Of a stretch of DNA of 61,643 nt, positions 1 to 50,412 are shown piece after piece (position 1 is the first letter of the stretch; every line of letters starts with the position of its first letter). Below the pieces are notes generated by a model. The model did not search any database. It saw nothing but the letters and a program-made list of their open reading frames with translations, and was not told the origin of the DNA. This stretch comes from a virus. The DNA lies in IMG/VR virus record IMGVR_UViG_3300010403_000005, positions 1-61,643 of that record. One strand, given 5' to 3'. Both the position numbers and the translations under genes were made by a program.

Positions 1-123
1 CAGCATCGCATCCTTGCTCGGTACACTGCCCAGCATGTTGCGTACGTCCGGCATGACACCTTCCGAGATGCAGGGCACGAGCATGATCGCGTCCTTGCCC
101 CACTCGCCCAGCGCTGCGTAGTC
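1..123. repeat. Terminal direct repeat, copy 1 (identical to 61521-61643). The contig closes into a 61,520-bp circle.
   Basis: All 123 bases (cagcatcgca...gcgctgcgtagtc) recur exactly at the other end. They lie inside one continuous minus-strand reading frame. Confidence 0.95.
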
Positions 124-4619: not shown

Positions 4620-5048
4620 TTAGGGGGTCATCACCTGACCGCCGCTCGGGCGAATGCTGATGCTCGCTTCCTGTGCGCCGTCCACCGGAGCCTTCGGAGC
4701 GATGTTCACGACGAATCCCGAGAAGAGCCACACGGCACCATCGGGGAAGTCGATCTCGTAGAGGTCTTTCGACCCAGTCGCCCACGCGTCGAGCAGTCCG
4801 GTGCTCGCGTCGTGAGTGTCTTCGCTGAACGGCAGCCAGTTGACCATGAAGGTCAGCTCGCCCTTCCGGCGAATGCCGACGACGTACGAGTCGTCGTCGC
4901 TGTTATGCGTTGTCGTGTCGATGGGCTTCCGCGTCAACGGTGGCGGAGTGATGTCTTTCAGCTCCGCAATCGGCGTACCGTTGCGCTTGACGATGGTGCC
5001 ATGAGCGGAGATCCCATTGCTCTCCGTTCCGGTATTGGTAACAGGCAT
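4620..5048 (-). CDS. Tail tube / major tail protein family (TP901-1 / lambda-V-N-like), located in the head module
   Basis: 142 aa. The pattern IDTTTHNSDD..GIRRKGELTF..IDFPDGAVWLFSGFV..ASISIRPSG is typical of sipho-type tube proteins. Confidence 0.6.
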   Translation of the reverse strand: MPVTNTGTESNGISAHGTIVKRNGTPIAELKDITPPPLTRKPIDTTTHNSDDDSYVVGIRRKGELTFMVNWLPFSEDTHDASTGLLDAWATGSKDLYEIDFPDGAVWLFSGFVVNIAPKAPVDGAQEASISIRPSGGQVMTP

Positions 5049-13644: not shown

Positions 13645-15372
13645 CTAAAACCCGGGCTCCTGAGCCCTCGACGGCTCGCCTCGGCCCATAAGCCCGATGC
13701 CGAAGTACTCGGACTGGCCAAGCCGGTTCTTACGGTTTTGAAACTTGCTGGCGATGCGATGGAAGAACGCCTTTTGACCAAGCCTCCAGAGCATGTCAAC
13801 ACTTGACTGTTCGCACCAATGCTGGTACTCGGCCCACAGGTCTTTACCCACGCACTTGACTGTTGACCCAAAGGTGCATCGCCCTTCCAGAAACGGCGTG
13901 AGCACGTCGGACTCCTCACGGTACTCCTTCGTGGCGTCGATCACGGCCTGTGGTGGGCGGAGCCCGTTCCAGTACCAGTCCATCGAGCCTTCCACGAGCC
14001 ACGTCAGGATGCCCTGTTGGTGCTCGGGCTCACGGAGGATGTCCTTGAGCTTCTTGTTGTCGGTCGGTCCTTCGAACTTGTTCAGGAACGGGATCAGGTG
14101 GATACGACGCCAGATGCCGTCGTCCTGACCAACGATCTTCGGCTTGTTGTTGGTGGCGATCCAGATCTTGCAGACCGGGATAAACGAGAAGAAGTCCTCG
14201 TGGAGGAACCGGGCCGTGATCTCATCACGGCCCGTGATCGCCTTGAGCCTAGCTTCGTTGACGGTCATTTCCTGCAGCTCGGCGTTTGTGACGAAACGCT
14301 TACCGTCCAAGTCTGCCAAGTCCGTGGGGATGCCAGCACCGAACTTCGAACGTTCGAGCGTGGTGGCGGGCATCTCGTCGTGGTAGTCGTTCAGGAGGTG
14401 ACTCAGGGTCTGCGTGAGCGTGCCTTTGCCGTTGGCTCCTCCACCGTATATGAAGAAGCAGCATTCCTCCGAGCAGTCGCCCGTGGCTGTGTACCCGAAC
14501 GCTCGCTGCACGAAGGAGACCATGTTGGCCTGCGCTTCGAGGTGCCGGGCCTGCGCTGCTTCGATCAGGTCTGTAGCGCTATCGGATGAGTCGATCACTG
14601 GAGCGAAGATGGCGTCGAGCGTGTCCTCCCACAACTCCGAGCGCTTGGTGCGGTCGAACGGGACGCCGACGCGCATGGTGATCCGTTCGTCCGGCGAGGC
14701 CTTGCGTACCACGCCGTAGCGCAGGTCGATGACTCCATTCATGCACCCGAGCAGGAACGGATCGCTGTCCCAGTTGTCACCGTTGTCAGCGAGCGGAGGG
14801 ACGGAAGCAGCGAGGGCCAGCAGGTTGGAGAGCCGCGAGCGGTTCTCCCCGCGCAGTGCCCAGTCCATCGCCACCTTTCGACGCGACTGGTCATCGATCA
14901 TGAGCGCACGCTTCTGCCGCTCGCGCATCGACGCCTTGGCCAGCTCGTACATCTCGTCCACCGGGTCCGGTAGCCACAGCCCTGTCTCGTCGTCCGCGAT
15001 CAGCCAGCGCGACTTGCGGTGGTTGTAGCGAACGCGCTCGGCGTACATCTGCGCGAAGTGTTCCGCGTCTCCCGACTCGGTGTAGGGGAAGTCCTCGGGC
15101 TCCGGTTGGGCCAAAGGTGCTTCGGCCTCGGGCAGGCCAAAGAGTGCGCGGAACTTGTTCCGGCCGCCGTACTTCTTCAGCTCAACGCCACCGAGCAGCG
15201 GGATCATCTTCATGCCCTCGACGCGAGCGAGGATGGGCTCGGGATCGGTGACGCCCTCGGTGGTCAGGTGCGCGATGATGGACTCTCGAGATGCACCTTC
15301 CTGATACGCCTGTCCGACCACGCGCTGCAGCGCAAGGATCGCGGCCTTCTTGATGTTGGCGTGTGTACTCAC
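13645..15372 (-). CDS. D5 / P4-type primase-helicase (SF3 NTPase)
   Basis: Walker A YGGGANGKGT, and KIWIATNNKP...WRRIHLIPF. The GTG 15372 start overlaps the PrimPol stop (GTGA). The ORF-track start at 15525 is probably too long. Confidence 0.85.
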   Translation of the reverse strand: MSTHANIKKAAILALQRVVGQAYQEGASRESIIAHLTTEGVTDPEPILARVEGMKMIPLLGGVELKKYGGRNKFRALFGLPEAEAPLAQPEPEDFPYTESGDAEHFAQMYAERVRYNHRKSRWLIADDETGLWLPDPVDEMYELAKASMRERQKRALMIDDQSRRKVAMDWALRGENRSRLSNLLALAASVPPLADNGDNWDSDPFLLGCMNGVIDLRYGVVRKASPDERITMRVGVPFDRTKRSELWEDTLDAIFAPVIDSSDSATDLIEAAQARHLEAQANMVSFVQRAFGYTATGDCSEECCFFIYGGGANGKGTLTQTLSHLLNDYHDEMPATTLERSKFGAGIPTDLADLDGKRFVTNAELQEMTVNEARLKAITGRDEITARFLHEDFFSFIPVCKIWIATNNKPKIVGQDDGIWRRIHLIPFLNKFEGPTDNKKLKDILREPEHQQGILTWLVEGSMDWYWNGLRPPQAVIDATKEYREESDVLTPFLEGRCTFGSTVKCVGKDLWAEYQHWCEQSSVDMLWRLGQKAFFHRIASKFQNRKNRLGQSEYFGIGLMGRGEPSRAQEPGF

Positions 15373-16148
15373 AGGTTCAACCCCAGTGACGCGAGCTTGA
15401 CGTCCTTGTACGTGTCGAGCGGCCGGTCCGGGTTGTTCCAGCCGCGTTCGAACCACCGACGCAGTCCGCTCGTGGGGAGCGGAGGCTTGCAGAAGTTCTC
15501 GTTGGCGAGCTGCACGCACCACCAAGCCGACTCGATGTCGTTCTGGAGGGCCTTGAGGGATCGCAGGAGCTTGAACAGCTCGTGGTGCCGCTCGCCGGAG
15601 GTGACTTCTGGAGGAAACGAGTATAGCTCACCTTGGGGAGCGTTTTCCGACCTTCCTCCGCACGAGCCGTCATCGAACAGGAACTCGGCAGGGAACATCG
15701 GGATGTCCATCACGTTCCACGACCACGCAGCGGCCATGTACACACAACCGCTGGGGTGCAAGGAGCCCGGACCCACCACGTATTGGCCCTCGTTGCGGAA
15801 CTCGATGGCCATGCCCTCGCGTCGGATGAACTTCGGCGTAGGCCGCGACAGGCGGAAGTACCGGTGCAGGCCGCGAGCGGTCTTGACCATGAACGGCGTG
15901 GCCGGGATGTGGTGCAGGTCGATCTGCCGGGCGATGAACTCCTCCGACTCGTCGGAGTCGGTGTCCACGACGCCGATGCCCCGGCCGAGCTTCACGCCGT
16001 AGTTGCCGAAGCCAGCTGCCGTGTCACGCGAACACGTGTACTCGACCCACTTGACTGCGGGCTCCTTGCCGCCTTCCCTGATGGGGAAGACACCGATCTG
16101 TTGATCCACAAACCAAGCAGCCGGAACGATGCGCGAGGCTCCGCTCAT
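15369..16148 (-). CDS. Bifunctional primase-polymerase (PrimPol) with PriCT-like C-terminus
   Basis: VFPIREGGKEPAVKW...GVVDTDSDE...GLHRYF...GPGSLHPSG, and SGERHHELFKLLRSL. ATG 16148 forms an ATGA overlap. Confidence 0.8.
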   Translation of the reverse strand: MSGASRIVPAAWFVDQQIGVFPIREGGKEPAVKWVEYTCSRDTAAGFGNYGVKLGRGIGVVDTDSDESEEFIARQIDLHHIPATPFMVKTARGLHRYFRLSRPTPKFIRREGMAIEFRNEGQYVVGPGSLHPSGCVYMAAAWSWNVMDIPMFPAEFLFDDGSCGGRSENAPQGELYSFPPEVTSGERHHELFKLLRSLKALQNDIESAWWCVQLANENFCKPPLPTSGLRRWFERGWNNPDRPLDTYKDVKLASLGLNL

Positions 16149-19788: not shown

Positions 19789-20024
19789 GCCTCCTTCAGC
19801 GCGGCCTTGAGCCGCGTCCACCATGTGCTGACCGGCACATCGTCGTAGCGGAGCCTGCGACAGTACTGTTCGGCCTCGCGGGGCTGGCGTATCGCCCACT
19901 CGACGCCGGGGTCCATTGCGAACGGCTCGACTGTCTCGGTGCCGTCCCGCTCAAGGAATCGACGGTGCAGGTCGCCGTGCGTCGTGATCTCGATGCGATT
20001 GTTGTTGCCGTCGATGATTCTCAT
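19782..20024 (-). CDS. Hypothetical 80-aa protein
   Basis: ORF track entry, translationally coupled on both sides. Confidence 0.6.
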   Translation of the reverse strand: MRIIDGNNNRIEITTHGDLHRRFLERDGTETVEPFAMDPGVEWAIRQPREAEQYCRRLRYDDVPVSTWWTRLKAALKEAW

Positions 20025-20647
20025 GATATTTGCAGGCCTCGAACGTTTTCATTCGTGAGCCGGAGTTCAGCCATCATGCCGACCTGTGTTTCGGACAGTC
20101 CGTCCGACTTCAGCTTCACCTCATACCAAATACGGTCCTTCGTGATCGGGTGCGAGAGTAGGAAGTCGAGCGATCCCTCCAGCTTGTAGACTCGGTAGCC
20201 CGGATATGTCGCTCGAAGATGCTTGTCCGCTATCTGTTCAGCCTCGACCATCCGGTCTACACGCGGAGTCATAGGCCCGCGTGGGTTCTTGACTGGTTCG
20301 CGCTTCTTAGGTCTGGCAGCCTTGGACCGGAAGAACTGCTCCGGATTAGATACGTCAGCGGTCACCATAAGTCGCTTTTCTTTTGGTGTTGGCTGCACCG
20401 ACTGCGACTCTAACATTTGTTTAATCAGGGAGTTGTATTTCCCTACACGAAGTAGTCGTGGTCTTGAACCGTGTGATCTTGGGCCGCCTGCGGTGTTTTC
20501 ATGTAGCCATCCGTTTTCCAATCCGATTCGAATTAAGTATTCAGGAGCGGATCGGGGAAGATTGAAACGTCGATGACTCGTTTTTGACCCGGACGACTGG
20601 GTGCGTATAAATTTCACCACTTCTGCTATCCATTGCTGGATGGTCAT
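20021..20647 (-). CDS. Protein with a C-terminal VRR-NUC / PD-(D/E)xK-like nuclease motif; the N-terminal part lies in a low-GC segment
   Basis: Start MTIQQW at 20647 (ATGA overlap). The C-terminus reads GSLDFLLSH..IWYEVKLKSDGLSETQ. Confidence 0.55.
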   Translation of the reverse strand: MTIQQWIAEVVKFIRTQSSGSKTSHRRFNLPRSAPEYLIRIGLENGWLHENTAGGPRSHGSRPRLLRVGKYNSLIKQMLESQSVQPTPKEKRLMVTADVSNPEQFFRSKAARPKKREPVKNPRGPMTPRVDRMVEAEQIADKHLRATYPGYRVYKLEGSLDFLLSHPITKDRIWYEVKLKSDGLSETQVGMMAELRLTNENVRGLQIS

Positions 20648-20889
20648 GGCTCTCCTGCCTCTCGCCACAGCTGCTGCGCGGTCGGTTCCTGCTCGGCCTT
20701 GTCAGGCACCGGGTCCGGGCAGTACGGGCACTGCCAGTGCGTGGCAGTGGCCAGCTGATCAGACAGGTGCGGTGTGGCCCGGAGATCTTTTTCGAAGAGC
20801 GAGAGATTGTGGCCGCACGTCAGGTGGATGATATAGCGCTGCTGAGTAGCGGTGGCGTCTACGATGTGCTTGACCGGCTGCTCCCTCAT
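20644..20889 (-). CDS. Hypothetical 81-aa protein with a Cys/His motif
   Basis: ORF track entry, with LTCGHN...WQCPYCPD. Confidence 0.6.
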   Translation of the reverse strand: MREQPVKHIVDATATQQRYIIHLTCGHNLSLFEKDLRATPHLSDQLATATHWQCPYCPDPVPDKAEQEPTAQQLWREAGEP

Positions 20890-21308
20890 TCGAACCTCCC
20901 ACAGAAGGTCAGGTCAGACACCTTGCGAAGACCGACTAGTTCGTCGCCATCGCATCGGTCCAGTGAAGGCGGGATGATGTCTCGGAGTTCCGCAAGCGGT
21001 GCGCCGTTCACGGAGATCATCGTGGAGTACGTGGGCGGCCGAGCAGGCTCCGGTTCAGGTTCCGGCAGCCGTGAAGAGAAGACCATCGGGCTGATGGGAT
21101 GCACGCTCATGTGCTCGCGGCTTCTCGACGTGATGTACCCGCTGAAACCCCACACCGATCCGTCCGGAAAGATCACCTCAAATTGCTGGCCGGAAGCAAC
21201 GAAGGTGGTGTTCGGTATTTGCGTGACGTCTACCGCCGGTGCGTCGATCAGGGCCTTGGCGACCGCCGGGATCGCTACGGCGGCAGCGATAAATTGTCTG
21301 CGGTTCAC
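20886..21308 (-). CDS. Tat-signal protein carrying a circularly permuted copy of the tail-tube-like domain of 4620-5048
   Basis: GTG 21308 (GTGA overlap, GAGGAGG upstream). The N-terminus is (M)NRRQFIAAAVAIPAVAKA. The blocks EVIFPDGSVWGFSGYI and NGAPLAELRDIIPPSLDR..LVGLRKVSDLTF occur in the reverse order relative to the paralog. Confidence 0.7.
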   Translation of the reverse strand: MNRRQFIAAAVAIPAVAKALIDAPAVDVTQIPNTTFVASGQQFEVIFPDGSVWGFSGYITSRSREHMSVHPISPMVFSSRLPEPEPEPARPPTYSTMISVNGAPLAELRDIIPPSLDRCDGDELVGLRKVSDLTFCGRFE

Positions 21309-21658
21309 GCTACCTCCTCGTACGTGCGCTTGTGCGCTTCGTTCTCTTCCCGCGTCATCCACTCCAGATGCTCCGGGTTGACGCAGAGTTCGTTCTCACC
21401 CTTGGGGCAGGTGTGCCCGGCCTCATGCAGCTCGGATGGCGGAGGGCCAGACTTCCATTCCAACACCAGCCGAGCCACGCGCACGACGCGTTTGATGGCC
21501 CGGATGCACATGATCGGCCGGTGCCCTCGACGCGTCGTGCTGACCGCCCCGGTCCAGCAGTGGCAGCCGGTCACCGGGTCCACGCGAACCTTGGCTGCTA
21601 CGCGGGCGGCCAGTGCGTCCGTCCGTGCGAGCCCGATGACCTTCGCGGGGCTGAACAC
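21305..21658 (-). CDS. HNH endonuclease
   Basis: GCHCWTG....HTCPKGENELCVNPEHLEWMTREEN is an HNH_3-type pattern. Confidence 0.8.
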   Translation of the reverse strand: MFSPAKVIGLARTDALAARVAAKVRVDPVTGCHCWTGAVSTTRRGHRPIMCIRAIKRVVRVARLVLEWKSGPPPSELHEAGHTCPKGENELCVNPEHLEWMTREENEAHKRTYEEVA

Positions 21659-21999
21659 TAGGGCTGAACCTTCTGTTCGTCGCCCGGCTCGCGGATGCCG
21701 ATGGTCAGAGCGACCTGCAGGCTCTGCTGATCTTCACCGACTCCGAAGCCGTCCACCCGGAATGCCCGAGGGCACTTGCGGCAGAGGATCACCTGCCCGA
21801 CGCGCAGGTTCTGCATGCTGTACGCTCCGCAGGGGCACTCCAGTTCGAACGCTCCGAACCACGAGTGGACTACGGGCTTCTTGCCGATCTCCGGCACGTT
21901 GGCTGCTGCGGCTTTCAGCTGGGCGTCTTCGAGCGTGCAGCCGGGCTTGCCGCAGTACGGCGTTCTCACGAATTTGTTACACATGCACATCAGAACCAC
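21658..21999 (-). CDS. Hypothetical Cys-rich 113-aa protein
   Basis: ORF track entry (GTG start) with multiple CxxC-like pairs. Confidence 0.55.
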   Translation of the reverse strand: MVLMCMCNKFVRTPYCGKPGCTLEDAQLKAAAANVPEIGKKPVVHSWFGAFELECPCGAYSMQNLRVGQVILCRKCPRAFRVDGFGVGEDQQSLQVALTIGIREPGDEQKVQP

Positions 22000-22106: not shown

Positions 22107-22338
22107 CAGACCCTCGAATCGTGTGGATCGCTGTGGTGAACGTAGCACTTGGCCGGGAGCCCCGGCGGAGGGGCACAGGCGACCGAGCGGTACCGGACTC
22201 CTCCGCACTCGCAGAAGGGCAGGTTGCAGCTGTCGCACTGCTTGGGGCCGCCGATCAGGATCAGCAGGCCCACGAACCCGAGGATGCCGGTCAGCAGCAT
22301 CAGGATCGCGGCCCACTGCTTGAGTTCGGCCTTCACTT
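22103..22338 (-). CDS. Single-TM protein with a Cys-rich tail (78 aa)
   Basis: GTG 22338 (GTGA overlap) gives VKAELKQWAAILMLLTGILGFVGLLILIGGPKQCDSCNLPFCECGG... Confidence 0.55.
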
Positions 22339-22518
22339 GATCGCCTGCATGATCACCGTGATGAGTACAGAGATCAGGGTGAAGCCCATGTAGACCAGCC
22401 ACGACTTCGGGTAGAGTCCGAAGACAAACCACATCGTAGCCGCGCTGTTGAGGAACAGCAGGATCAGGAGAAAGATCACGGCGAGTACCTTGGCGAGCGT
22501 GTTGTCGATGCTGCTCAT
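22333..22518 (-). CDS. Small multi-TM membrane protein (holin-like topology)
   Basis: 61 aa with AAGGAG upstream. There are 2-3 hydrophobic spans (VLAVIFLLILLFL, WFVFGLY, GFTLISVLITVIM). Confidence 0.65.
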   Translation of the reverse strand: MSSIDNTLAKVLAVIFLLILLFLNSAATMWFVFGLYPKSWLVYMGFTLISVLITVIMQAIK

Positions 22519-22527
22519 GTCCGCTCC

Positions 22528-23412
22528 TTAGAAGGTGACCGAAACTACGAAGCCGAGCTTGCGCTCGGCGTACCCGACGTAGGGCGAAGCCCACACGTTC
22601 GTGGTGGGCTGGTGCGGGATGAAGTTCGCCACGTTGAACGAGATCGGCAGCAGGCCGACGTCCGCTCCGCCACTCCCGAACGTCACGACAGGTGTGAGCA
22701 GCGCGTACTTCAGGTCGCCGGGGTTGTTCGACCGACCGTGCTTGAGCCATTGGAGCCCGATCACGGCACTCTTCGGTCCCGGCCGGATGCCTCCCTGCAG
22801 GTTGAACCCGGTGAGCCAGTGCGGGGTGGTCTCATCGACGTACGCTTCGGCGGTCTGTGCTGGCAGGCGCACGTTGCCGGTCGGAGTCACCTCGAACAGC
22901 TGGACGTCGGTGAGTCGCTTGCCGTCCTTGCTGCGGCCGGTGACACTCAGTGCAAGGAACTTCTGCCGCAGTTCGTAGTCGATCTTGCCCTCGGCTGTGC
23001 CGGTGATCGTCAGCCGGTAGTCCTTCGCCGTGAAGTCACGGAACGTAGGCACTTCGACCGTGGTCGGTACTTCAATGACCGTCGGGTCCGTGCTCGGGTG
23101 AGGTGAGGTGACGACGTCGAGTTTGCCTGTGGAGTGGGACTCAGCAGTCGTGACAGTGGCGATCACCGGCTTCGCTTTCAGCTGCGCTACCTCCTTGAGC
23201 AGGGCCGCGATCTGCGCTTGGTCTGCCGGGTTGCTGGTCAGCTGCGCGGGCTTGATCGAGTCCACCTCAACCGCCTTGGTGTTGGGTAGCACGAACGTGG
23301 TAGGCACGACCGGGGCCGCAGACCGTTTGCGAAAGTGGTCGTAGACTCCCACGCCGAGGCAGATCAGCAGAATCAGGATGATGAGATCGCGTCCGAAAGT
23401 GGATCGGTTCAT
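22528..23412 (-). CDS. N-terminally membrane-anchored protein with a beta-barrel-like C-terminal half ending in Phe
   Basis: 294 aa with AAGGAG upstream. The N-terminus is MNRSTFGRDLIILILLICLGVGVY, followed by a Pro/Thr-rich linker. The C-terminus has alternating-hydrophobic strands ending ...KLGFVVSVTF. Confidence 0.7.
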   Translation of the reverse strand: MNRSTFGRDLIILILLICLGVGVYDHFRKRSAAPVVPTTFVLPNTKAVEVDSIKPAQLTSNPADQAQIAALLKEVAQLKAKPVIATVTTAESHSTGKLDVVTSPHPSTDPTVIEVPTTVEVPTFRDFTAKDYRLTITGTAEGKIDYELRQKFLALSVTGRSKDGKRLTDVQLFEVTPTGNVRLPAQTAEAYVDETTPHWLTGFNLQGGIRPGPKSAVIGLQWLKHGRSNNPGDLKYALLTPVVTFGSGGADVGLLPISFNVANFIPHQPTTNVWASPYVGYAERKLGFVVSVTF

Positions 23413-24395: not shown

Positions 24396-25277
24396 TTAGT
24401 GTTCGAGAAACACGACGTCGTTGCGCTTGCCGTCGATGCAGTAGCGGCACTCGACGCAGTTCGGTTTGTCGCCGGTCTCCTCCGGGCAGATGAAGGCCGG
24501 GGTGAACTCGGTGTTGAGTGGATCGTCGGACTCGAACACGACCATGTTGCGGTCGGAGAGCACGAAGTCCACGCCGTCGCTGCCCTTGACCATCGGGTGC
24601 AGCCGCTCCTCCATCGGGAGGCCGCTCTTGGCAGCCGACTCCGAGCTGCGGTGAATCCACGACCGACGCCAGCCGGTGGGCGGCATGTCCGGACAGGACG
24701 CGTCCATCGATGCGAAGAGCTGCACGTTCGGTAGCGCACGCAGCACCTCCAGCGAGGGCAGGAGTTCCGGCACGCGCCAGCTGCGGGTGTACGCCCAGCA
24801 CTTGACGTCGGGCCGCTCGCGCAGCCGCTCGATCCAGTTCTCGACGTAGCGCACCGTGTTGAAGTCGCCCGAGATGTGCAGCCGCAGGATCTTGGCGTCC
24901 TCGGGGATCGGCTCGACGTTGTCCGTGACGGAGTTGCCCAGCCACATCGCGGCGACCGTGCCCTGCTCCGCGACCGGCCGCTCGGCGTAGCAGATCGCCT
25001 CGCACTCCGGCGTCGAGCCGGGGCACGTGCCGTTCCAGCCGCGAGCCTCAACGCTGGGCGGAGGAATGTCCTCGGCCTTCGTGGGCTCCAGCGTGTCCAC
25101 GGTCGGCTGCGGCCCCGCGAACGAAGGCAGCCCCAGCGCGGCCTTCGTGGGCCTGCCGGGCAAACGGCTGTAGGTGTAGACGCCCGGCCCGATCTTCAGG
25201 TTGCCAAGGCCAAAGGGCGACATCGTGACGCCACGGGTGTCCGGACGGTAGAGCACGAGGGGCTTCAGAATCTGCAT
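24396..25277 (-). CDS. Cys-rich protein, possibly GP88-family-like
   Basis: 293 aa with GGAGG upstream. Contains TCPGSTPECEAICYA...LHISGDF..YTRSW...CPEETGDKPNCVECRYC. The family assignment is from memory only. Confidence 0.6.
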   Translation of the reverse strand: MQILKPLVLYRPDTRGVTMSPFGLGNLKIGPGVYTYSRLPGRPTKAALGLPSFAGPQPTVDTLEPTKAEDIPPPSVEARGWNGTCPGSTPECEAICYAERPVAEQGTVAAMWLGNSVTDNVEPIPEDAKILRLHISGDFNTVRYVENWIERLRERPDVKCWAYTRSWRVPELLPSLEVLRALPNVQLFASMDASCPDMPPTGWRRSWIHRSSESAAKSGLPMEERLHPMVKGSDGVDFVLSDRNMVVFESDDPLNTEFTPAFICPEETGDKPNCVECRYCIDGKRNDVVFLEH

Positions 25278-25741: not shown

Positions 25742-25947
25742 GCGCTCTCCCTTTTGCTGACGATGCGAAGCTCCGCCGGATCGATGTCAGCGTCGATCTC
25801 GACGTCGCACGGAATGACCAGCGTGGCCTCCGTGCGTTCTCCGACTTCGGCGTTGAAACCCACGGCCACGGTCTCGATGGGATTGCCGTCGAGTGTCACC
25901 GTACCCGTGCCGTCCTGTTGCACGTGTACCTTCAGCTTGTGGCTCAT
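25738..25947 (-). CDS. Hypothetical 69-aa protein
   Basis: ORF track entry, coupled on both sides. Confidence 0.6.
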   Translation of the reverse strand: MSHKLKVHVQQDGTGTVTLDGNPIETVAVGFNAEVGERTEATLVIPCDVEIDADIDPAELRIVSKRESA

Positions 25948-26924
25948 GCGTTCACCTCCGCGAGTGCGGACTCGATGCGGGTCTTGGCGATGTTGAAGTA
26001 GTCCGGCTCGCGCTCGATGCCGATGAAGTTTCGGCCTTCGAGGATCGCAGCCACGCCAGTGGTGCCGCTGCCGAGGAACGGGTCGATGATCGTGTGGCCC
26101 GGCAAGCTCACGAGCCGGATCAGCCGACGCATGAGTTCGATGGGCTTGACGGTGGGGTGGAAGTTCTGCGCGAGGACCGGCTTCACGACCTTGCCCTTGG
26201 CGTTCGACGTCATGTGGCTCAGCCGGTTGTCCTTCTCGACCTGTGGCAGGTCCGCGCAGCCGTAGTCACGATCCTTCGGGGAGGGCTTCGGCACGAAGAA
26301 CGTACCGGGGTGCTCCGCGACGAGCGTGCTCACTTCCTCGAACGCTTGCACCAGTGAGTCATCGATGATGACGTCGGTCGGGTGCTTGCCGTCCTCGGCC
26401 TTCCATGTCTGTGCGTGCATCTGACCGAGACCCTTCTCCTTGAAGAGCTTGGTCAGGTTCTCGTTGCTCGGTACCCGGCCGACGAATACCGGCTCGCAGC
26501 CCGGCCGCAGGTCGTTCGGGTTCTTGACCTGACCGGACGCGTAGAGCCAGAACACCATGCGCGGGATGTCGTACCCGGCACGCATGAGCCCGCGATCCAC
26601 CGGGCCGATGGTGCGTCCGGCAGTGAACGCCAGCAGGTGACTGCCAGCCTTCAGCACGTTCTGCCGCATCGCATAGGCCCACTGCTCCGTGAACTTGGCG
26701 AATTTCTCCGCGTCGTCAGCGGCCGTGGTGTGCGAGCGGTTGTCGGAGAAGGAGTCCCACTCCTTCTCGCCCGCGAAGTCGAAACCGTACGGAGGGTCAG
26801 TGACGCAGGCATCAGCGCGAAGTAGGCCCACTCGTTTCATGCTGGCCGGAACTTCGCTGTATGGCCTGAGACCATCCGTCATCAAGGCGATGCTATCGCC
26901 GTTGAACAATTGCGCTGTGACCAT
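25944..26924 (-). CDS. DNA methyltransferase, N6_N4_Mtase family (beta class, probably N6-adenine)
   Basis: Motif IV VTDPPYG comes before motif I IIDPFLGSGTTGVAA. Confidence 0.85.
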   Translation of the reverse strand: MVTAQLFNGDSIALMTDGLRPYSEVPASMKRVGLLRADACVTDPPYGFDFAGEKEWDSFSDNRSHTTAADDAEKFAKFTEQWAYAMRQNVLKAGSHLLAFTAGRTIGPVDRGLMRAGYDIPRMVFWLYASGQVKNPNDLRPGCEPVFVGRVPSNENLTKLFKEKGLGQMHAQTWKAEDGKHPTDVIIDDSLVQAFEEVSTLVAEHPGTFFVPKPSPKDRDYGCADLPQVEKDNRLSHMTSNAKGKVVKPVLAQNFHPTVKPIELMRRLIRLVSLPGHTIIDPFLGSGTTGVAAILEGRNFIGIEREPDYFNIAKTRIESALAEVNA

Positions 26925-28843: not shown

Positions 28844-29085
28844 CGCTTCACCTCGCACACGAAGTCCACGTGATCGATGTCGCTGATGTCCGTGATGTCG
28901 AGCGAGTCACCGTTAACTGTCTGAGCCGTGATGCGGATGTTATCCATCCGCAGCAGTCCGGTGGGCTTGCGGGTCATCAGCCGGGGTGTCCGCTGCTTGC
29001 AGAACTCCGTGATCGCTTCCACGAGATCTTCCTTCGTGAGTTCGACGTGGACGCTTACCGTACTCTTGACAGATGTCTTCATCAT
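28840..29085 (-). CDS. Hypothetical 81-aa protein
   Basis: MMKTSVKSTVSVHVELTKEDL... from ATG 29085 (ATGA overlap with the helicase stop). Confidence 0.6.
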   Translation of the reverse strand: MMKTSVKSTVSVHVELTKEDLVEAITEFCKQRTPRLMTRKPTGLLRMDNIRITAQTVNGDSLDITDISDIDHVDFVCEVKR

Positions 29086-30665
29086 TCCTCCGTGAGAATC
29101 CGACGCCACGTGGCGGTCGTCCACATGGCGATGTCGTTCTTGCCGCGCAGTGCTGCGGCGATGTGGTGGTCGATGGTGCGCTGGCCCTTCGGCCCGACTG
29201 CCACCACATCGACGTACGCCACCGGCTTGGTCTGCCCCGGCCGACGTACCCGGCCCCGTGCCTGCAGGTAGACCCGGAGCTTCGTGTCCTGACTCAGCGT
29301 GATCGCCAGCGAGGCACCAGCCAAGTTGACTGCCGCTCCACCGGCCAGTGGGTTGCCCACGACCGCGACCCGCTCGGTCTGTGGGATGCCGGGGTTGAGA
29401 GCCCGGAGGGCGGCCGTGCGGTCGTCGGCCGACTGCTCGCCGTAGAGCAGGTGTATCCTGCGGTTCGTTTCCATCCCCAGCCGAGCCGCCATGCGCTCGA
29501 TCTCCACGCGGAACCGGCTCCAGATCAGCAGGCGTTCCGGCTGCGGGTGCTCGGAGAGCCACTTGAGCGTTCCATCGATCTTTTCGGAAGACAGGATCTG
29601 GATCGGATCGACGTCCGGCACGACCACGTTCTGGTCAGCGAAGTCGAGCAGGTCGCCTTCCAGATCCAACTGCTGCACTCCACCGACGAACCCGGAGGTG
29701 ATTTGCGCGAGCCGCATGGCTTTGACGATGGCCTGCTTTGCCACGCTGGCCTTGTTCGGACCGTCCGTGGGGCCTGCGTCGATCCACGCGACCATCTCGT
29801 CGCGCATCTGCTTGTAGACCCGCCACGTCTCGTCGGTGAGCTTGACCTCGATGGTGACTGGGTCGAGCACCGGCGGCAGATCCCAGCAGTCCTCGGTCTT
29901 GCGGTTCAACACGTACGGGGCGATGTTGTTCCGCAGCTCTTCAAGGTTCTGCCACCCGATAATCTGCGGGAAGTTCACGTTGGGCTTGAGTAGCGCGTAC
30001 CGCGCACGGAAGTGCGACATGTACTTGTACCCGAGGATGCGCCAGTCGAGCATCTTCATCTGCGCGAAGAGATCGAGAGGGCTGTCGGTGACCGGCGACC
30101 CGTTCAGCAGCGTGACGCGCTTGATGTTCTTCATGCTGCGGATCTTGAACACGGCCTTCCACTGGTCGGTCTGCGCGTCTGAGAGGCACCACGCCTCATC
30201 GAGGACCAGCCAGATGCCCTTACGGTTCATCAGGTACTTCATGAAGGGCTTCAGCCGCTCATCCCGGCGAACGAACTCGTAGTTGCTCACGAGCCATGTC
30301 AGGTGGTTCGGTGGGGCCACGGCGATCTTCGGGTAGCGCACCGAGTACTCGACCACGTAGTTGGGAATGTCCTCCCAGCCGTGCTTGGCGACTTCCCCGA
30401 TCTCCGGGTCCGGGTCGGCCCACACCGGCCGTCCCTGCGCGGGGGCGAGCGCGACTACGGTATCGATGGCGTTCCAGTCGTAGGCGAACTGCGTAGCGTC
30501 CACGGCCTGCTTCGACTTGCCGCAGCCTACCTCGTCAGCCAGCAGGAACACGCCGGGGATGACGCGGCCCTTCTCCGGGTCGTCACGCTTCAATAGCTCG
30601 CGGACGCCCACCTTCTGGTGGTCCTTCGGAGGGGTGGCGCAGCGGTCCCAGCTGATCTCGCGCAT
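29082..30665 (-). CDS. SNF2-family (SF2) helicase
   Basis: Motif I LADEVGCGKS, motif II LVLDEAW, then LLNGSPV. The C-terminal helicase domain has ..QARGRVRRPGQ. Start MREISWD at 30665. Confidence 0.85.
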   Translation of the reverse strand: MREISWDRCATPPKDHQKVGVRELLKRDDPEKGRVIPGVFLLADEVGCGKSKQAVDATQFAYDWNAIDTVVALAPAQGRPVWADPDPEIGEVAKHGWEDIPNYVVEYSVRYPKIAVAPPNHLTWLVSNYEFVRRDERLKPFMKYLMNRKGIWLVLDEAWCLSDAQTDQWKAVFKIRSMKNIKRVTLLNGSPVTDSPLDLFAQMKMLDWRILGYKYMSHFRARYALLKPNVNFPQIIGWQNLEELRNNIAPYVLNRKTEDCWDLPPVLDPVTIEVKLTDETWRVYKQMRDEMVAWIDAGPTDGPNKASVAKQAIVKAMRLAQITSGFVGGVQQLDLEGDLLDFADQNVVVPDVDPIQILSSEKIDGTLKWLSEHPQPERLLIWSRFRVEIERMAARLGMETNRRIHLLYGEQSADDRTAALRALNPGIPQTERVAVVGNPLAGGAAVNLAGASLAITLSQDTKLRVYLQARGRVRRPGQTKPVAYVDVVAVGPKGQRTIDHHIAAALRGKNDIAMWTTATWRRILTEE

Positions 30666-30799
30666 CAGATCCGTCCGTTCTTGAGTCGCGTGAAAATGGA
30701 GCACGGCGACTCGCTCTTCGGTTTCGGGAACAGCAGGATGCCGATCACGCCAAGGATACTCACTTCGATCACTGAGGCTGCCAGCCAGTAGAGACCCAT
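30665..30799 (-). CDS. Small single-TM protein (44 aa)
   Basis: Hand translation gives MGLYWLAASVIEVSILGVIGILLFPKPKSESPCSIFTRLKNGRI. There are TGATG overlaps at both ends. Confidence 0.5.
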   Translation of the reverse strand: MGLYWLAASVIEVSILGVIGILLFPKPKSESPCSIFTRLKNGRI

Positions 30800-31719
30800 C
30801 ACTGCACCTCCGCGAGCTTCGGTTGGTCGGGGAACTTGCCGAACATGGCGTCCTTACAGATCGCCTTGACGGATGGCGAGAGGCCGGTGGCCTTGTTGAC
30901 AATCCAGTCGAGATCTCGACGCGCCATCTTCTTGAGCGGCACACCTTTGTACTTGGTGCCGAAGTTCATGACCGCCTCGCCGTTCTTCCAGATGATCTTG
31001 CCGTCCGGGTCAATGGTGTTCGGGTCTCTCGGGTACATCAGCGCGTGGAGTTTCTCGAGACTCCGGGGCAGCTGGTCGTACTTGCGGAGCTGGGCACGGA
31101 AGACCTCAATCGTGTCCTCGATGTCGCTCAGTGCGGAGTGCGCTCCGGAGGGCTCCCGGCCGAGGAAGAAGCGGCACGCGTCGGTCAGCGACCGTGGGTC
31201 GCAGTACTGCCAGATGCGGTAGACGTCCACGAGGAAGACCTTGTCGAAGCCCCACTCGATGCCGCAGCGCTTGAACTCCTCGACCATCAGCGGCAGGTCA
31301 AACCGCTTGCCGTTATAGGTGCCGAGATCTGCGTCCGAGAACCCTTTGTACAGGTTGGCTGCGATGTCGGAGAACTTGGGCCAAGGAGCAAAGTCGTGAA
31401 GCTCTTCCTCGCCGTACTGCTGCGCGTCGTGCTGATCGCGTGAGACTTCGGTCTGTCCACGCTCGTAGCATTTGCGGCAGCCCTGCACCATTGCGTTCGT
31501 GATGCCGTGGCCGGGATAGTCTCCGCCGTTGCCGTACGTGGCTTCACGCGGGATCGGGATGCCGGGGTTGATGAGAGTCTGCCAGCGCTTCTCGCTGCCG
31601 TCCGGCTTCGTGTGGATGAAGGCTATCGACACGATGCGGTCCACTACCGGGTCCGGACCAGTGGTCTCCGTGTCGAAGAACAGCAACGGCCGCGTCAGCG
31701 GTTCAAGCTCTGCGATCAT
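30799..31719 (-). CDS. DnaQ-like (DEDDh) 3'-5' exonuclease
   Basis: ExoI FFDTETTG, ExoII YNGKRFDLPL, ExoIII HSALSDIED. Confidence 0.85.
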   Translation of the reverse strand: MIAELEPLTRPLLFFDTETTGPDPVVDRIVSIAFIHTKPDGSEKRWQTLINPGIPIPREATYGNGGDYPGHGITNAMVQGCRKCYERGQTEVSRDQHDAQQYGEEELHDFAPWPKFSDIAANLYKGFSDADLGTYNGKRFDLPLMVEEFKRCGIEWGFDKVFLVDVYRIWQYCDPRSLTDACRFFLGREPSGAHSALSDIEDTIEVFRAQLRKYDQLPRSLEKLHALMYPRDPNTIDPDGKIIWKNGEAVMNFGTKYKGVPLKKMARRDLDWIVNKATGLSPSVKAICKDAMFGKFPDQPKLAEVQ

Positions 31720-33520: not shown

Positions 33521-34207
33521 TTACGCGAGAAACTCGCGGGTGCGGACCTTGAATCCCGCGAGATCCTTTCCTGAGAGTTTGTGCTCGACCACGTAGTCCA
33601 CGAGCGTGGCGTCTTTGGCCGCCTGCGCGTCGAGAGCCGTGATCAGCTTGACGCCCTGCGCGATCCCGGTGACCGTGCCCTGCGCGTCGATGGAGAGGAT
33701 GATCGTTTCGAAGACCTTCATGAGTGACTCCTTCGTGACCGGCTGTTGTGATCTGAACACAGGGCCGCCGGTAGGCCGCAGTGTGATCCTGAGCTGCGAT
33801 CCGCAGCCGTAGGTACCGTAGATGTGGTTAACCCGCTCAATGTACCCCAGCCATTTAACCGAGTCAAGATCGACTTCCGCGAGTCCACCGAGCTTGGGTA
33901 CGTAGGCGTTGTGGCCAACCGCGTCCACCGTGAACTCGATGTAGCCGTCGATGGTCATCTCGCCCAGCTCGTAGCGATCCCACACGTCGTCGTGACGCGA
34001 AGGGATCAGACGTGGCTTGCGATGCAGCGAGGGCAGCTGCAAATCGCGCATCTCTGAGATATGGTAGCGGTAGCCGGGCTCGGCCATTGGCTGCTCCTTC
34101 TTCGGTGGATTGATGACGCGGAGTTCTCCGTCGCACCCGTACCACCACATGAGTGCTCGTTCGTCGCTATCGTAGACGTCTTTCATAAGGCTGCGACCGT
34201 ATTTCAT
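33521..34207 (-). CDS. Hypothetical 228-aa protein
   Basis: Start MKYGRSLMKD at 34207 (ATGA overlap with the polymerase stop). Confidence 0.65.
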   Translation of the reverse strand: MKYGRSLMKDVYDSDERALMWWYGCDGELRVINPPKKEQPMAEPGYRYHISEMRDLQLPSLHRKPRLIPSRHDDVWDRYELGEMTIDGYIEFTVDAVGHNAYVPKLGGLAEVDLDSVKWLGYIERVNHIYGTYGCGSQLRITLRPTGGPVFRSQQPVTKESLMKVFETIILSIDAQGTVTGIAQGVKLITALDAQAAKDATLVDYVVEHKLSGKDLAGFKVRTREFLA

Positions 34208-36438: not shown

Positions 36439-36944
36439 CGAATGGCCGGGAGGGCGTCCTTCTCGTAGTCGAACACGACCGTGGCCCACGGAGCCGTTTT
36501 CGTGAACTCGTCGTACGCCTGCTGCAGAAACTCCGGCGTCTGGTAGCCCGGCCGCTCGCGGCCTTCGCGTGTGACGTTGGCCAGCGTCGTCTCAAAGGTC
36601 GGTAGGCAGAGGATCACCGGCACGTGGCGTCCGCGCAGGTAGTCGTTCAGCATGCGGAGCATGCCCTCGTCCAGCGTCTGCTTGCCGCGCAGGATGGGAC
36701 CATAGACCATCTCCGAGAGGTGGAAGCGGTCGTAGGCGATCTTGGTCAGCCCGGCCTGCTCCTCGGTGTCGGCCGTGATGATCTTCTTGACGTAGGCCAT
36801 CAGCGGCGGATCGCCGTTGGCCCAGCCCTGTTCGGTCGTGCCTCCGACGCCACCAGTTACTGACTTCAGCGACCGCCGTTCGAAGCCGAGCCGCTTGATG
36901 AGTTCTGTCTTGCCCGAGCCGTCTGGCCCTTCCACTATGATCAT
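36435..36944 (-). CDS. P-loop kinase (thymidylate/dNMP-kinase-like; polynucleotide kinase not excluded)
   Basis: MIIVEGPDGSGKTELIKRLG. ATGA overlaps on both sides. Confidence 0.65.
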   Translation of the reverse strand: MIIVEGPDGSGKTELIKRLGFERRSLKSVTGGVGGTTEQGWANGDPPLMAYVKKIITADTEEQAGLTKIAYDRFHLSEMVYGPILRGKQTLDEGMLRMLNDYLRGRHVPVILCLPTFETTLANVTREGRERPGYQTPEFLQQAYDEFTKTAPWATVVFDYEKDALPAIR

Positions 36945-50212: not shown

Positions 50213-50412
50213 TGCTTGACTACCTGAGCCGTGGCTCGCGCTTCCGCGATCACGCCGGTCACGAGAGTGGCGACTTCCGGGTGCCCAGCGACCGTGGCAA
50301 CCGCACTCAGGACTTCCGGGTGGTTCGAAGCCCACAGCGCGGCCTGCGCTGCCTTGACAGAGACCTTGGCGAACCCGAGACCGACGTTCTTCCAATTGAT
50401 TCCGAACATCAC
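50209..50412 (-). CDS. Hypothetical 67 aa in the lysis region
   Basis: ORF track entry, coupled on both sides. Confidence 0.55.
   Translation of the reverse strand: MMFGINWKNVGLGFAKVSVKAAQAALWASNHPEVLSAVATVAGHPEVATLVTGVIAEARATAQVVKQ

What the first reader, a model, noticed from the sequence alone, without database searches (positions are those of the whole stretch)
20886..21308. Tat-signal protein that is a circular permutation of the phage's own tail-tube-like protein
The ORF starts at GTG 21308 (GTGA coupling, GAGGAGG upstream) with (M)NRRQFIAAAVAIPAVAKA, a twin-arginine export signal.

Its mature part matches the tube-family protein at 4620-5048 in two blocks, but in swapped order.
- Block b, EVIFPDGSVWGFSGYI (aa 44-59), matches EIDFPDGAVWLFSGFV (aa 98-113 of the tube protein).
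- Block a, NGAPLAELRDIIPPSLDR...LVGLRKVSDLTF (aa 101-135), matches NGTPIAELKDITPPPLTR...VVGIRRKGELTF (aa 23-67).

A periplasm-targeted, permuted copy of a tube domain, expressed from the early operon next to an HNH endonuclease, is not something I know to be described. It could act as a decoy or superinfection-exclusion factor. It could also be a periplasmic assembly or penetration aid.
Basis: seen in the sequence. Interest (0 to 1): 0.7.

Follow-up and report, generated by a model that had tools for sequence, protein, structure and literature searches.

The report
Exported, circularly permuted tail-tube paralog
This phage carries, among its replication genes, a small protein that is a rearranged (circularly permuted) copy of a tail-tube domain behind an export signal; about 45 related phage proteins share this design, nobody appears to have described it, and its function is untested.

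Summary
ORF 20886-21308(-) matches the phage's lambda-gpV-type tube protein (4620-5048) in two blocks in swapped order (BLASTP E 2e-9 and 1e-6). Profile-profile comparison gives 98.4% and 96.9% probability. Rejoining the two halves restores one collinear match.

An exhaustive search plus profile searches found about 45 homologs of 120-200 aa, all from phage-like metagenome contigs. All have the same permutation and an N-terminal [NTK]-R-R-x-[FWML]-[LI] motif followed by an Ala/Val-rich stretch. In a 30-member alignment the only invariant residues are Met1 and the two arginines, and their codons vary synonymously.

The gene always lies among early/replication genes. It is not a recent copy of this phage's own tube. 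Its mature domain is exchanged between close relatives while staying under purifying selection (omega 0.14-0.36). There is no Pfam, PHROG, NCBIfam or PADLOC family, no cultured-phage homolog and no literature.

Export through Tat is strongly suggested but unproven: curated Tat HMM thresholds are not met and the host is unknown. Function is inferred only. My best guess is an envelope-located decoy that blocks tail-mediated DNA entry (superinfection exclusion). I judge it a new variant of a known fold with moderately high interest.

The parts
20886..21308 (-). Complete CDS, 140 aa plus stop; a member of a new family of twin-arginine-signal, circularly permuted tail-tube-domain proteins.
   Evidence: The family HMM matches it at E 3.9e-35.
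21313..21319 (-). Shine-Dalgarno-like GAGGAGG, 4 nt upstream of the GTG start. The GTG overlaps the HNH stop codon (GTGA).
   Evidence: The same GAGGAGGTAGC-GTG arrangement is present in the syntenic relative L001.
21252..21308 (-). Residues 1-19, MNRRQFIAAAVAIPAVAKA. This is a twin-arginine type signal: an NRRQFI motif, a 13-residue uncharged Ala/Val-rich core, a Lys in the c-region and an AKA cleavage-type site.
   Evidence: Pfam TAT_signal matches at 12.7 bits, E 0.13, below the cut-off. The model shows a helix at residues 3-21.
21072..21200 (-). Residues 37-79. These correspond to the C-terminal half of the tube fold (tube residues about 91-140) and include the FPDGxxWxFSG motif.
   Evidence: Model strands 41-46, 51-62, 66-71 and 76-79 have pLDDT above 90.
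21030..21071 (-). Residues 80-93, a Pro/Glu-rich linker (LPEPEPEPARPPT) that joins the former C-terminus of the tube fold to its former N-terminus.
   Evidence: The region containing this linker varies from 18 to 55 residues across the family.
20898..21029 (-). Residues 94-137. These correspond to the N-terminal half of the tube fold (tube residues 16-68): the AELxDIxPPxLxR motif, a shortened hairpin loop and the GLRKxxDLTF strand.
   Evidence: Model strands lie at 96-100, 103-112 and 133-137. The hairpin loop is 11 residues here, against a fixed 21 in tubes.
4620..5048 (-). Normal-order lambda-gpV-type tail tube protein, 142 aa. It represents the parent family and lies between the protease/scaffold gene and the decoration/capsid genes.
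   Evidence: Pfam PF16461 E 3e-13. phrog_158. Foldseek top hit is the lambda tail tube 8k36_A, E 1.4e-6. The database holds 293 relatives at E <= 1e-5; the 120 listed are 75-100% identical.
21305..21658 (-). HNH endonuclease-like gene, 117 aa, immediately upstream with overlapping stop/start. It is a conserved syntenic neighbour in this phage lineage.
   Evidence: phrog_1872 at E 1.2e-18. Homologs lie next to, or one gene away from, family members in L001, L091 and L092.

Best explanation
**Shown here**
- ORF 20886-21308 is a real, selected gene of a previously unnamed phage protein family.
- The family derives from the lambda-gpV / PF16461 tail-tube domain by circular permutation. The order is: signal, then tube residues about 77/91-141, then a variable linker, then tube residues about 11-72.
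- Every member carries an N-terminal twin-arginine motif followed by a weakly hydrophobic Ala/Val-rich segment.
- The gene is always found among early/replication genes, never in the tail module.

**Inferred (about 0.65)**
- The N-terminus is a Tat signal, cleaved or acting as a signal anchor.
- A pre-folded tube-fold module is therefore placed outside the cytoplasmic membrane soon after infection: in the periplasm if the host is diderm.

**Inferred by analogy only (about 0.25-0.3)**
- There it acts as a decoy for the surfaces that normally contact a tube subunit, such as the tape measure, the tail tip or the tube end of an incoming siphophage or tailocin.
- This would block genome delivery, which is superinfection exclusion.
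- The exchangeable mature domain and the variable hairpin and linker would set specificity.
For: **Permutation**
- Two swapped significant matches.
- 26 of 30 members hit the tube HMM as two swapped domains.
- De-permuted sequences give one contiguous match over HMM positions about 11-137, usually with a higher score.
- Secondary-structure elements of the two AlphaFold models occur in the permuted order.
- Members P0011 and P0003 keep a helix-like C-terminal remnant, as expected from a duplication-truncation origin.

**Real gene and real family**
- The exhaustive search returned 17 proteins at E <= 0.001, of which 13 are full-length homologs besides the ORF itself; 25 hits in the profile search; further members in L091 and L092.
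- Omega is 0.09-0.36 between two close relatives.

**Export signal**
- M1, R3 and R4 are the only invariant columns among 30 members at 21-45% identity.
- The RR codons differ synonymously among loci.
- All 30 have [NTK]RRx[FWMLC][LI] followed by a 12-22-residue uncharged core.
- Pfam TAT_signal is hit by 6 of 30 members (best E 1.3e-4). TIGR01409 is hit by 3 of 30.
- The window protein has a Lys in the c-region and an AKA site.

**Accessory, arms-race-like behaviour**
- Between L091 and L092, the HNH gene is 100% identical and the primase 98%, but the mature domain has dS 0.76-1.2 against 0.02-0.2 in the flanks. The first 53 codons are conserved (dS 0.19, omega 0.09).
- The ORF is 46% identical to its L001 ortholog, while three of the four flanking genes are 62-73% identical and the fourth is 47%.
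- It is 32% identical to the L092 member, although the tubes are 85% identical.
- It is absent within 4 kb of the HNH gene in relative L093.
- The hairpin loop varies from 7 to 52 residues, against a fixed 21 in tubes.

**Context.** The gene lies in replication/early blocks in 8 independent contigs.

**Precedent.** Periplasmic proteins can block phage DNA entry, for example HxsA (PMC13128918). From my own knowledge: T4 Sp/Imm, P1 Sim, TP-J34 Ltp and T5 Llp.
Against: - There is no experiment behind any of this.
- The window protein does not reach the curated Tat HMM cut-offs: PF10518 scores 12.7 bits against 22.7, and there is no NCBIfam hit.
- The host, and so the existence of a periplasm or a Tat system, is unknown.
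- In the largest subfamily the residue after the AVA site is Pro. That argues against signal-peptidase cleavage there, so those members may stay membrane-anchored.
- Foldseek found no significant structural match for the ORF model in PDB or BFVD, so tube-like geometry is not shown in 3D.
- No defence or exclusion family matches (PADLOC).
- There is no conserved partner gene.
- Overall omega is below 1, so there is no direct signature of positive selection.
- The exclusion function rests only on location, ancestry and evolutionary pattern.
Confidence: 0.4

Rival explanations
1. The protein is exported or membrane-anchored, but serves the phage's own cycle rather than exclusion. Candidate roles are a regulator or component of lysis timing, envelope remodelling, or masking of a receptor from the periplasmic side to prevent progeny loss. 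Tube ancestry would then only provide a stable beta-sandwich scaffold.
For: - The same export evidence as above applies.
- The Ala/Gly-rich core also resembles signal-anchor-release segments of phage lysis proteins (my own knowledge).
- Upstream neighbours in the window are membrane proteins: 22528-23412 and 22333-22518.
- No tail-interaction surface has been shown to be conserved. The conserved residues are mostly Pro, Gly and Phe fold positions.
Against: - It is not linked to the endolysin-like gene at 49679-50395.
- There is no conserved partner.
- Presence/absence among close relatives and cassette-like exchange of the mature domain fit a dispensable specificity factor better than a core lysis or envelope function.
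Confidence: 0.2
2. The protein acts in the cytoplasm or at the inner face of the membrane, and the RR-hydrophobic N-terminus is not an export signal. It could be a tube mimic that regulates or caps tail-tube polymerisation. It could also titrate a host defence sensor that recognises tail-tube proteins; from my own knowledge, DSR2 is activated by a phage tail-tube protein.
For: - It is a tube-derived domain expressed with early genes.
- A distant relative (L012 20-772) has a normal-order tube-like domain without any RR signal in its early region. This shows that tube-like early proteins need not be exported.
- Curated Tat HMM cut-offs are not met.
Against: - Invariance of both arginines with synonymous codon variation, the position of the motif directly after Met, and the following uncharged 12-22-residue segment in all 30 members are what a Tat signal requires. 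A soluble cytoplasmic mimic would have no need of them.
- The first 53 codons are the most strongly conserved part between L091 and L092 (omega 0.09).
Confidence: 0.15
3. It is a recent, possibly decaying, rearranged duplicate of this phage's own tube gene, or a gene-calling artefact without function.
For: - The word-index search found only the protein itself.
- GC3 is slightly lower than in neighbours (0.71 against about 0.8).
Against: - About 45 full-length homologs share the architecture, on independent contigs.
- Omega is below 0.4.
- The ORF is no closer to its own tube than to tubes of other phages (rank 44 of 124).
- An SD sequence and translational coupling are conserved in L001.
- The AlphaFold core has pLDDT above 90.
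Confidence: 0.03

Closest known systems
Lambda gpV N-domain type siphophage tail tube proteins (Pfam PF16461 Phage_TTP_12 / PF16460; PHROG 158), including this phage's 4620-5048 protein
   Same: - The sequence motifs are shared: AELxDITPPxLTR, GLRRxGxLTF, FPDGxxWxFSG and the final xSxRPxG strand.
- The set of secondary-structure elements is the same.
- Both are acidic: median pI 4.7 for the family against 5.0 for tubes.
   Different: - The order of the two halves is swapped.
- An N-terminal twin-arginine segment has been added.
- The inter-subunit hairpin loop is variable (7-52 residues against a fixed 21), and a variable linker replaces the native termini.
- The gene lies among replication/early genes, not structural genes.
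- Family members are highly divergent, whereas the tube is 75-96% conserved.
- Collinear Pfam models mostly miss it.
Phage-encoded envelope-located superinfection-exclusion proteins (my own knowledge): T4 Sp and Imm, P1 Sim, T5 Llp, TP-J34 Ltp (acts on the tape measure), HK97 gp15, P22 SieA
   Same: - They are small phage-encoded accessory proteins with an N-terminal export or anchor signal.
- They are made early or from the prophage.
- They are sporadically distributed and fast-diverging.
- They are proposed to act at the step of DNA passage through the envelope.
   Different: - There is no sequence or fold relationship, and no PADLOC or PHROG hit.
- As far as I know, none of these is derived from a virion tube protein or uses a twin-arginine signal.
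- An exclusion activity has not been tested here.
Bacterial Tat substrates with short n-regions, for example E. coli CueO (signal MQRRDFLK..., my own knowledge)
   Same: - The RR pair lies at positions 3-4, followed by x-F-L/I.
- There is a moderately hydrophobic Ala-rich core, a basic residue in the c-region and an AxA site.
   Different: - The passenger is a small cofactor-less beta-sandwich of viral origin.
- The window signal is only 19 residues long.
- The HMM score is below the curated cut-offs.
HxsA periplasmic gatekeeper of phage DNA entry (PMC13128918)
   Same: - It is a protein placed in the periplasm that stops phage genome entry. This shows that such a mechanism exists.
   Different: - It is host-encoded, matured by radical-SAM enzymes and binds DNA through HxS repeats.
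- Its fold is unrelated.
Hcp (type VI secretion tube) and other tube-fold paralogs of phages (my own knowledge): gpU terminator, Dit N-domain
   Same: - They belong to the same fold superfamily as the parent tube (Foldseek hits to Hcp1).
- They are examples of the tube fold being re-used for new roles.
   Different: - They are collinear rather than permuted.
- They are cytoplasmic assembly components without Sec or Tat signals.

Membership tests
Circularly permuted homolog of the tail-tube domain | Two segments each significantly similar to the parent, in swapped order | tested here: met
   - BLASTP E 2e-9 and 1e-6.
- hhalign P 98.4% and 96.9%.
- 26 of 30 members show it.
- The reciprocal family HMM against the tube shows it too.
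- Shuffle control: 38.2 bits against a maximum of 7.8.
Circularly permuted homolog of the tail-tube domain | Re-joining the segments in parental order restores one collinear full-length match | tested here: met
   - De-permuted sequences give a single domain over HMM positions about 11-137 in 23 of 27 cases, and the full-sequence score rises in 25 of 27.
Circularly permuted homolog of the tail-tube domain | Three-dimensional superposition with a permutation-aware aligner | not testable with these tools
- It found nothing significant.
- Only the order of the secondary-structure elements could be compared, and that is consistent with the permutation.
Pfam PF16461 Phage_TTP_12 (lambda-like tail tube proteins) | Score above the family's gathering threshold with the collinear model | tested here: not met
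   - The window ORF has no hit at E <= 1.
- 8 of 30 family members give weak hits, best E 2.2e-4.
Pfam PF16461 Phage_TTP_12 (lambda-like tail tube proteins) | Encoded in the virion structural module and forms the tail tube | tested here: not met
   - The gene lies among replication/early genes in the window and in 8 other contigs.
- Whether it is incorporated into virions cannot be tested here.
Twin-arginine (Tat) signal peptides | Consensus [ST]-R-R-x-F-L-K-like motif near the N-terminus, with both arginines conserved | tested here: met
   - The window protein has NRRQFIA.
- The RR pair is invariant in 30 of 30 members, with synonymous codon variation.
Twin-arginine (Tat) signal peptides | Uncharged, moderately hydrophobic core of about 12-20 residues, then a c-region that often holds a basic residue and an AxA site | tested here: met
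   - The window protein has QFIAAAVAIPAVA (13 residues) followed by K-A.
- Family cores are 12-22 residues, with Kyte-Doolittle hydropathy of about 1.1-2.3 in the 27 members where the script picked out the core.
- In the MTRREWL subfamily the AVA site is followed by Pro, so cleavage there is doubtful.
Twin-arginine (Tat) signal peptides | Curated HMM thresholds (PF10518, TIGR01409) | tested here: not met
   - PF10518 scores 12.7 bits against a cut-off of 22.7.
- PF10518 matches 6 of 30 members at E <= 1, best E 1.3e-4.
- TIGR01409 matches 3 of 30, best E 0.012.
Twin-arginine (Tat) signal peptides | Tat-dependent export | not testable with these tools
   - Needs localisation in tat+ and tat- hosts and an RR-to-KK mutant.
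- SignalP and TatP were not available.
Superinfection-exclusion proteins | Expression blocks infection by the same or related phages after adsorption | not testable with these tools
- There is no PADLOC match.
Superinfection-exclusion proteins | Accessory character: patchy presence, rapid or mosaic divergence, early or lysogenic expression block | tested here: met
   -.
- This feature is not specific to exclusion proteins.

The most novel reading that the evidence does not exclude
Phages have turned their own tail-tube subunit inside out (circular permutation), added a Tat signal and now export it, already folded, into the periplasm. There it would act as a specificity-swappable decoy that caps or sequesters the tape measure or tail tip of incoming siphophages or tailocins. 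This would be a structural-protein-derived superinfection-exclusion mechanism and the first dedicated phage Tat substrate.
Probability: 0.25. Interest if true: 0.8.

Novelty: new variant of a known kind. Interest (0 to 1): 0.64.

Why it matters
**What would be new**
- A virion building block has been re-wired in both topology and cellular address to do something outside the virion.
- If the export signal works, this would to my knowledge be the first family of phage proteins dedicated to the Tat pathway.

**Why it is tractable**
- The protein is only 120 residues once the signal is removed.
- It would be a clean natural example of circular permutation by duplication and truncation; members P0011 and P0003 look like intermediates.
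- The mature domain is swapped between near-identical phages while the signal is kept. This suggests a specificity module that could be exploited to map which incoming-tail components are accessible in the periplasm during DNA ejection, a step that is still poorly understood for siphophages.

**If the exclusion idea is wrong**
- The family still marks an unrecognised envelope-directed activity in a large group of roughly 60-kb soil phages.

Tried and rejected
1. **Word-index homology search with the ORF.** It found only the protein itself. This was misleading, because the exhaustive HMMER search then found the family.
2. **tblastn against 50,697 cultured phage records.** Neither the ORF nor member P0018 gave a real hit.
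3. **Family libraries.** Pfam, PHROGs, NCBIfam and PADLOC hold no family for the ORF.
4. **Foldseek of the ORF model.** Nothing significant against PDB or BFVD. This is uninformative because the aligner is sequential and the model includes the signal helix.
5. **The search for related loci with the whole family alignment.** It failed for lack of a conserved stretch.
6. **Anchoring on other window proteins.** Scans of IMG/VR with the 294-aa neighbour, the primase and TerL found nothing. The single metagenome scan with TerL returned only distant, short contigs. An alignment of HNH homologs finally reached close relatives.
7. **GTDB genome scan for prophage copies.** None were found, so there is no host assignment.
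8. **Search for a conserved partner gene next to family members.** None exists across the family.
9. **Idea that the ORF is a recent copy of the phage's own tube.** Rejected.
10. **Idea that the HNH gene is a mobile homing insertion that brought the ORF in.** Not supported, because the HNH gene is syntenic and conserved in relatives.
11. **Weak resemblance between the subfamily motif APLVDLTDxTP and the tube motif IAELxDITPP.** Not significant (hhalign P 0.25%) and dropped.
12. **P0004 and P0010 from the exhaustive search.** These are repeat proteins that match only a DGSxW motif and were excluded.
Full report
**1. The observation**

The window is a complete, circularly assembled phage genome. 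It has a 123-bp exact terminal overlap and 62% GC, and most genes are on the minus strand.

- ORF 20886-21308(-) starts at GTG 21308. That GTG overlaps the TGA stop of the upstream HNH gene and is preceded by GAGGAGG.
- Its product begins MNRRQFIAAAVAIPAVAKA.
- Codon-position GC (0.61/0.50/0.71) is that of a coding frame in this genome.

The similarity to the 142-aa protein at 4620-5048 is real and swapped in order.

- BLASTP gives two HSPs. ORF 94-136 matches tube 16-68 (E 2e-9) and ORF 37-61 matches tube 91-115 (E 1e-6).
- A tube-family HMM scores the ORF at 38.2 bits, against at most 7.8 bits in 2000 shuffles.

The 142-aa protein is a lambda-gpV-type tail tube protein. It matches Pfam PF16461 (E 3e-13) and phrog_158. 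Its AlphaFold model matches the lambda tail tube (8k36_A, E 1.4e-6), monocin tubes and Hcp.

**2. It is a family, not a one-off**

The word-index search found only the protein itself. The exhaustive HMMER search of 1.84 billion cluster representatives returned 17 proteins at E <= 0.001. Thirteen of them are full-length homologs of 131-188 aa, aligned from residue 1. A profile search added about 20 more, and two more were found in IMG/VR contigs.

All share three features:

- **An N-terminal twin-arginine segment.** Every member has [NTK]-R-R-x-[FWMLC]-[LI] directly after the initiator Met. An uncharged Ala/Val/Gly-rich stretch of 12-22 residues follows.
- **The C-terminal half of the tube fold comes first.** It carries the FPDG...F.G motif and the ...RP.G strand.
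- **A variable linker, then the N-terminal half of the tube fold.** It carries the ELxDIxxPxxxR and GLRRxGxxTF motifs.

Conservation singles out the signal.

- In the 30-member alignment (21-45% identity to the window protein) the only invariant columns are M1, R3 and R4.
- The arginine codons differ synonymously from locus to locus: CGC AGA, AGA CGG, CGA CGA, CGT AGG and others. The conservation is therefore at the protein level.

**3. Proof of the permutation at sequence and profile level**

- A tube HMM hits 26 of 30 members as two domains in swapped order. For example, in P0011 HMM positions 95-140 match residues 46-91 and HMM positions 13-77 match residues 110-169.
- Cutting each protein and re-joining it in parental order gives a single contiguous match over HMM positions about 11-137 (23 of 27), and the full-sequence score rises in 25 of 27.
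- hhalign of family versus tube profiles gives two alignments. Family 116-175 matches tube 14-78 (P 98.4%, E 5.6e-15). Family 50-101 matches tube 89-141 (P 96.9%, E 1.8e-10).
- The reciprocal family HMM hits the window tube in two swapped pieces.
- The second hhalign alignment starts at the Trp that ends the tube's only helix. In most members the helix region (DxTPAFWNQ in the large subfamily) directly follows the signal. This places the breakpoint in the loop between strand 3 and the helix, around tube residues 72-90.
- P0011 and P0003 also keep a helix-like tail at the C-terminus: AEEAQGLLED, compared with DASTGLLDAW in the tube. This is what a tandem-duplication-then-truncation origin predicts.

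**4. Structure**

- With the 30-sequence alignment, AlphaFold2 gives mean pLDDT 78.7. The beta core is above 90.
- The ORF model has helix 3-21 (the signal). Strands 41-46, 51-62, 66-71 and 76-79 follow, then the linker, then strands 96-100, 103-112 and 133-137.
- The tube model (pLDDT 63.5) has strands 19-22, 25-34 and 65-71. Helix 85-91 follows, then strands 94-100, 106-119 and 127-141.
- The elements are therefore the same in rotated order. The window protein lacks the helix.
- Foldseek aligns sequentially and found nothing significant for the ORF model in PDB or BFVD.
- A permutation-aware superposition could not be run, so the 3D test is open.

**5. Genomic context**

In the window, the gene sits in a long minus-strand block that includes:

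- a D5-type primase-helicase (13645-15525), a GP88-like protein (24396-25277) and a DNA methylase (25944-26924);
- a polymerase-like protein (34204-36489) and an SNF2-like helicase (29082-30944).

Other members lie in comparable places:

- next to DNA polymerase A, D5 primase, methylases and SNF2 helicases;
- next to thymidine-hypermodification genes (TAGT, HMUDK);
- at the head of an early operon that diverges from the packaging genes.

No member lies in a tail module. No neighbour is conserved across the whole family. No copy was found in 185,579 GTDB species genomes or in cultured phages.

**6. Evolutionary behaviour**

- **Not a recent copy.** The ORF scores 70 bits against its own tube, rank 44 of 124 tubes, with the best at 76 bits. 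It belongs to an older lineage.
- **Slow tube, fast paralog.** The tube is the best-conserved protein of this phage group. It is 79-85% identical in relatives whose capsid protein is 62-67% identical. The permuted paralog is among the least conserved. It is 46% identical in L001, where three of the four flanking genes are 62-73% identical and the fourth 47%. It is 32% identical in IMGVR_UViG_3300009678_000065, whose tube is 85% identical.
- **Patchy presence.** Relative L093 has the HNH gene but no family member within 4 kb.
- **Domain exchange.** L091 and L092 are nearly identical phages: HNH 100% and primase 98% identical at the amino-acid level. The first 53 codons of the family gene show dS 0.19 and omega 0.09. 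The mature domain shows dS 0.76-1.2 and omega 0.14-0.36. The mature domain has therefore been exchanged by recombination with a divergent allele. The signal was kept and the protein stays under purifying selection.
- **Variable loops.** The hairpin loop is a fixed 21 residues in tubes but 7-52 residues in the family. The region containing the linker varies from 18 to 55 residues.

**7. Interpretation**

*Shown.* This is a real, selected, previously unnamed phage protein family. It is built from a circularly permuted lambda-type tube domain behind an invariant twin-arginine N-terminus, and it is encoded with early/replication genes.

*Inferred (about 0.65): the N-terminus is a Tat signal or signal anchor.*

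- It fits the S/T-R-R-x-F-L-K consensus. It has a weakly hydrophobic core, a Lys in the c-region and an AKA site.
- From my own knowledge it resembles short Tat signals such as CueO (MQRRDFLK).
- Against this, curated HMM thresholds are not reached: 12.7 bits against 22.7, 6 of 30 members for PF10518 and 3 of 30 for TIGR01409.
- The host is unknown.
- In the largest subfamily a Pro follows the AVA site. Those members may remain anchored to the membrane.

*Inferred by analogy only (about 0.25-0.3): the function is exclusion.*

- The tube module would be placed outside the cytoplasmic membrane early in infection.
- There it would mimic a tube subunit towards the tape measure or tail tip of incoming siphophages or tailocins, and so block genome entry.
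- The evolutionary pattern in section 6 fits this reading but does not prove it.
- Periplasmic blocking of DNA entry has precedents. HxsA is one (PMC13128918). From my own knowledge, so are T4 Sp/Imm, P1 Sim, TP-J34 Ltp and T5 Llp.

*Rivals.*

- A periplasmic role in the phage's own lysis or envelope handling (0.2).
- A cytoplasmic tube mimic, for example against defence sensors that recognise tail-tube proteins (0.15).
- A decaying duplicate or artefact (0.03, essentially refuted).

**8. Novelty**

- No Pfam, PHROG, NCBIfam or PADLOC model covers the family.
- Full-text searches returned nothing relevant. The combinations tried were circular permutation with tail tube, twin-arginine with tail tube or superinfection exclusion, Tat signal with phage-encoded, and circularly permuted with Hcp.
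- I rate it a new variant of a known kind. The fold and the general idea of envelope-directed phage accessory proteins are known. The permuted topology, the Tat-type address and the re-use of a tube subunit are not.

Noticed in passing
window 4620-5048 (also 59028-59441 and 58633-59031); L018, L025, L033: The only recognisable tail-tube gene lies in the head module, between the DUF2213 protease/scaffold gene (5099-6991) and the decoration and capsid genes (4103-4552, 2949-4022). It is not in the usual slot between the neck/terminator-like genes and the tail chaperones. Three relatives keep the same order. There the tube is the best-conserved structural protein (79-85% identity, against 62-67% for the capsid protein).
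   Followed up: partly
L012 20-772: A distant relative (TerL 47% identical) encodes a normal-order tube-like domain in its early region. It has a C-terminal extension of about 100 aa and no twin-arginine signal (tube HMM E 0.0025). Tube-derived early proteins may therefore exist in more than one form.
   Followed up: no
L091 3118-3678 versus L092 3103-3675: In two near-identical phages the first 53 codons of the family gene have diverged as little as the flanking genes (dS 0.19). The mature domain shows dS 0.76-1.2 and a 7-residue indel in the hairpin loop. This points to cassette-like recombination with a breakpoint just after the signal/pre-domain.
   Followed up: yes
window 21305-21658, 21658-21999, 20644-20889; L001, L012, L091-L093: The HNH gene next to the ORF is conserved and syntenic in relatives (49-77% identity; 100% between L091 and L092). 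It therefore does not look like a sporadic homing endonuclease. Two small Cys-rich, zinc-ribbon-like proteins flank it, and both are also conserved.
   Followed up: partly
L012 4398-4805; L093 4711-6165: In relatives that lack the family gene near the HNH gene, the neighbourhood holds other ORFs with hydrophobic, signal-like N-termini. One is an unrelated 135-aa ORF. The other is a 484-aa ORF starting MENKTRIHTSLVTSFLLAMLVPASA, followed by beta-helix-like repeats. This region may be a slot for exported accessory proteins.
   Followed up: no
window 22528-23412 and 22333-22518: Two membrane-type proteins lie just upstream. The 294-aa protein has an N-terminal transmembrane segment and a C-terminus ...GFVVSVTF, which resembles an outer-membrane beta-barrel signature and hints at a diderm host. 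The other is a 61-aa protein with two hydrophobic segments. Neither has a family match.
   Followed up: no
window 20021-20668: The 215-aa ORF two genes downstream has atypical composition (GC 52.5% and GC3 0.56, against about 0.78 in neighbours) and no family match. It may be a recent acquisition.
   Followed up: no
L005 10912-16250; L007 1476-4988: Two roughly 79-kb phage contigs that carry family members also encode TAGT, HMUDK-like kinase, thymidylate-synthase-like and radical-SAM genes. Together these form a thymidine hypermodification cluster.
   Followed up: no
P0035 (211 aa); P0004 and P0010: P0035 joins a family N-terminus (first ~67 residues) to an unrelated sequence carrying a precomputed PF00724 hit, and is probably a chimeric assembly. 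P0004 and P0010 are repeat proteins that enter the hit list only through a DGSxW-type motif.
   Followed up: no
window 1-123 and 61521-61643: The two contig ends share an exact 123-bp overlap, so the window is a circularly closed assembly of about 61.5 kb. The structural module runs across the junction.
   Followed up: yes
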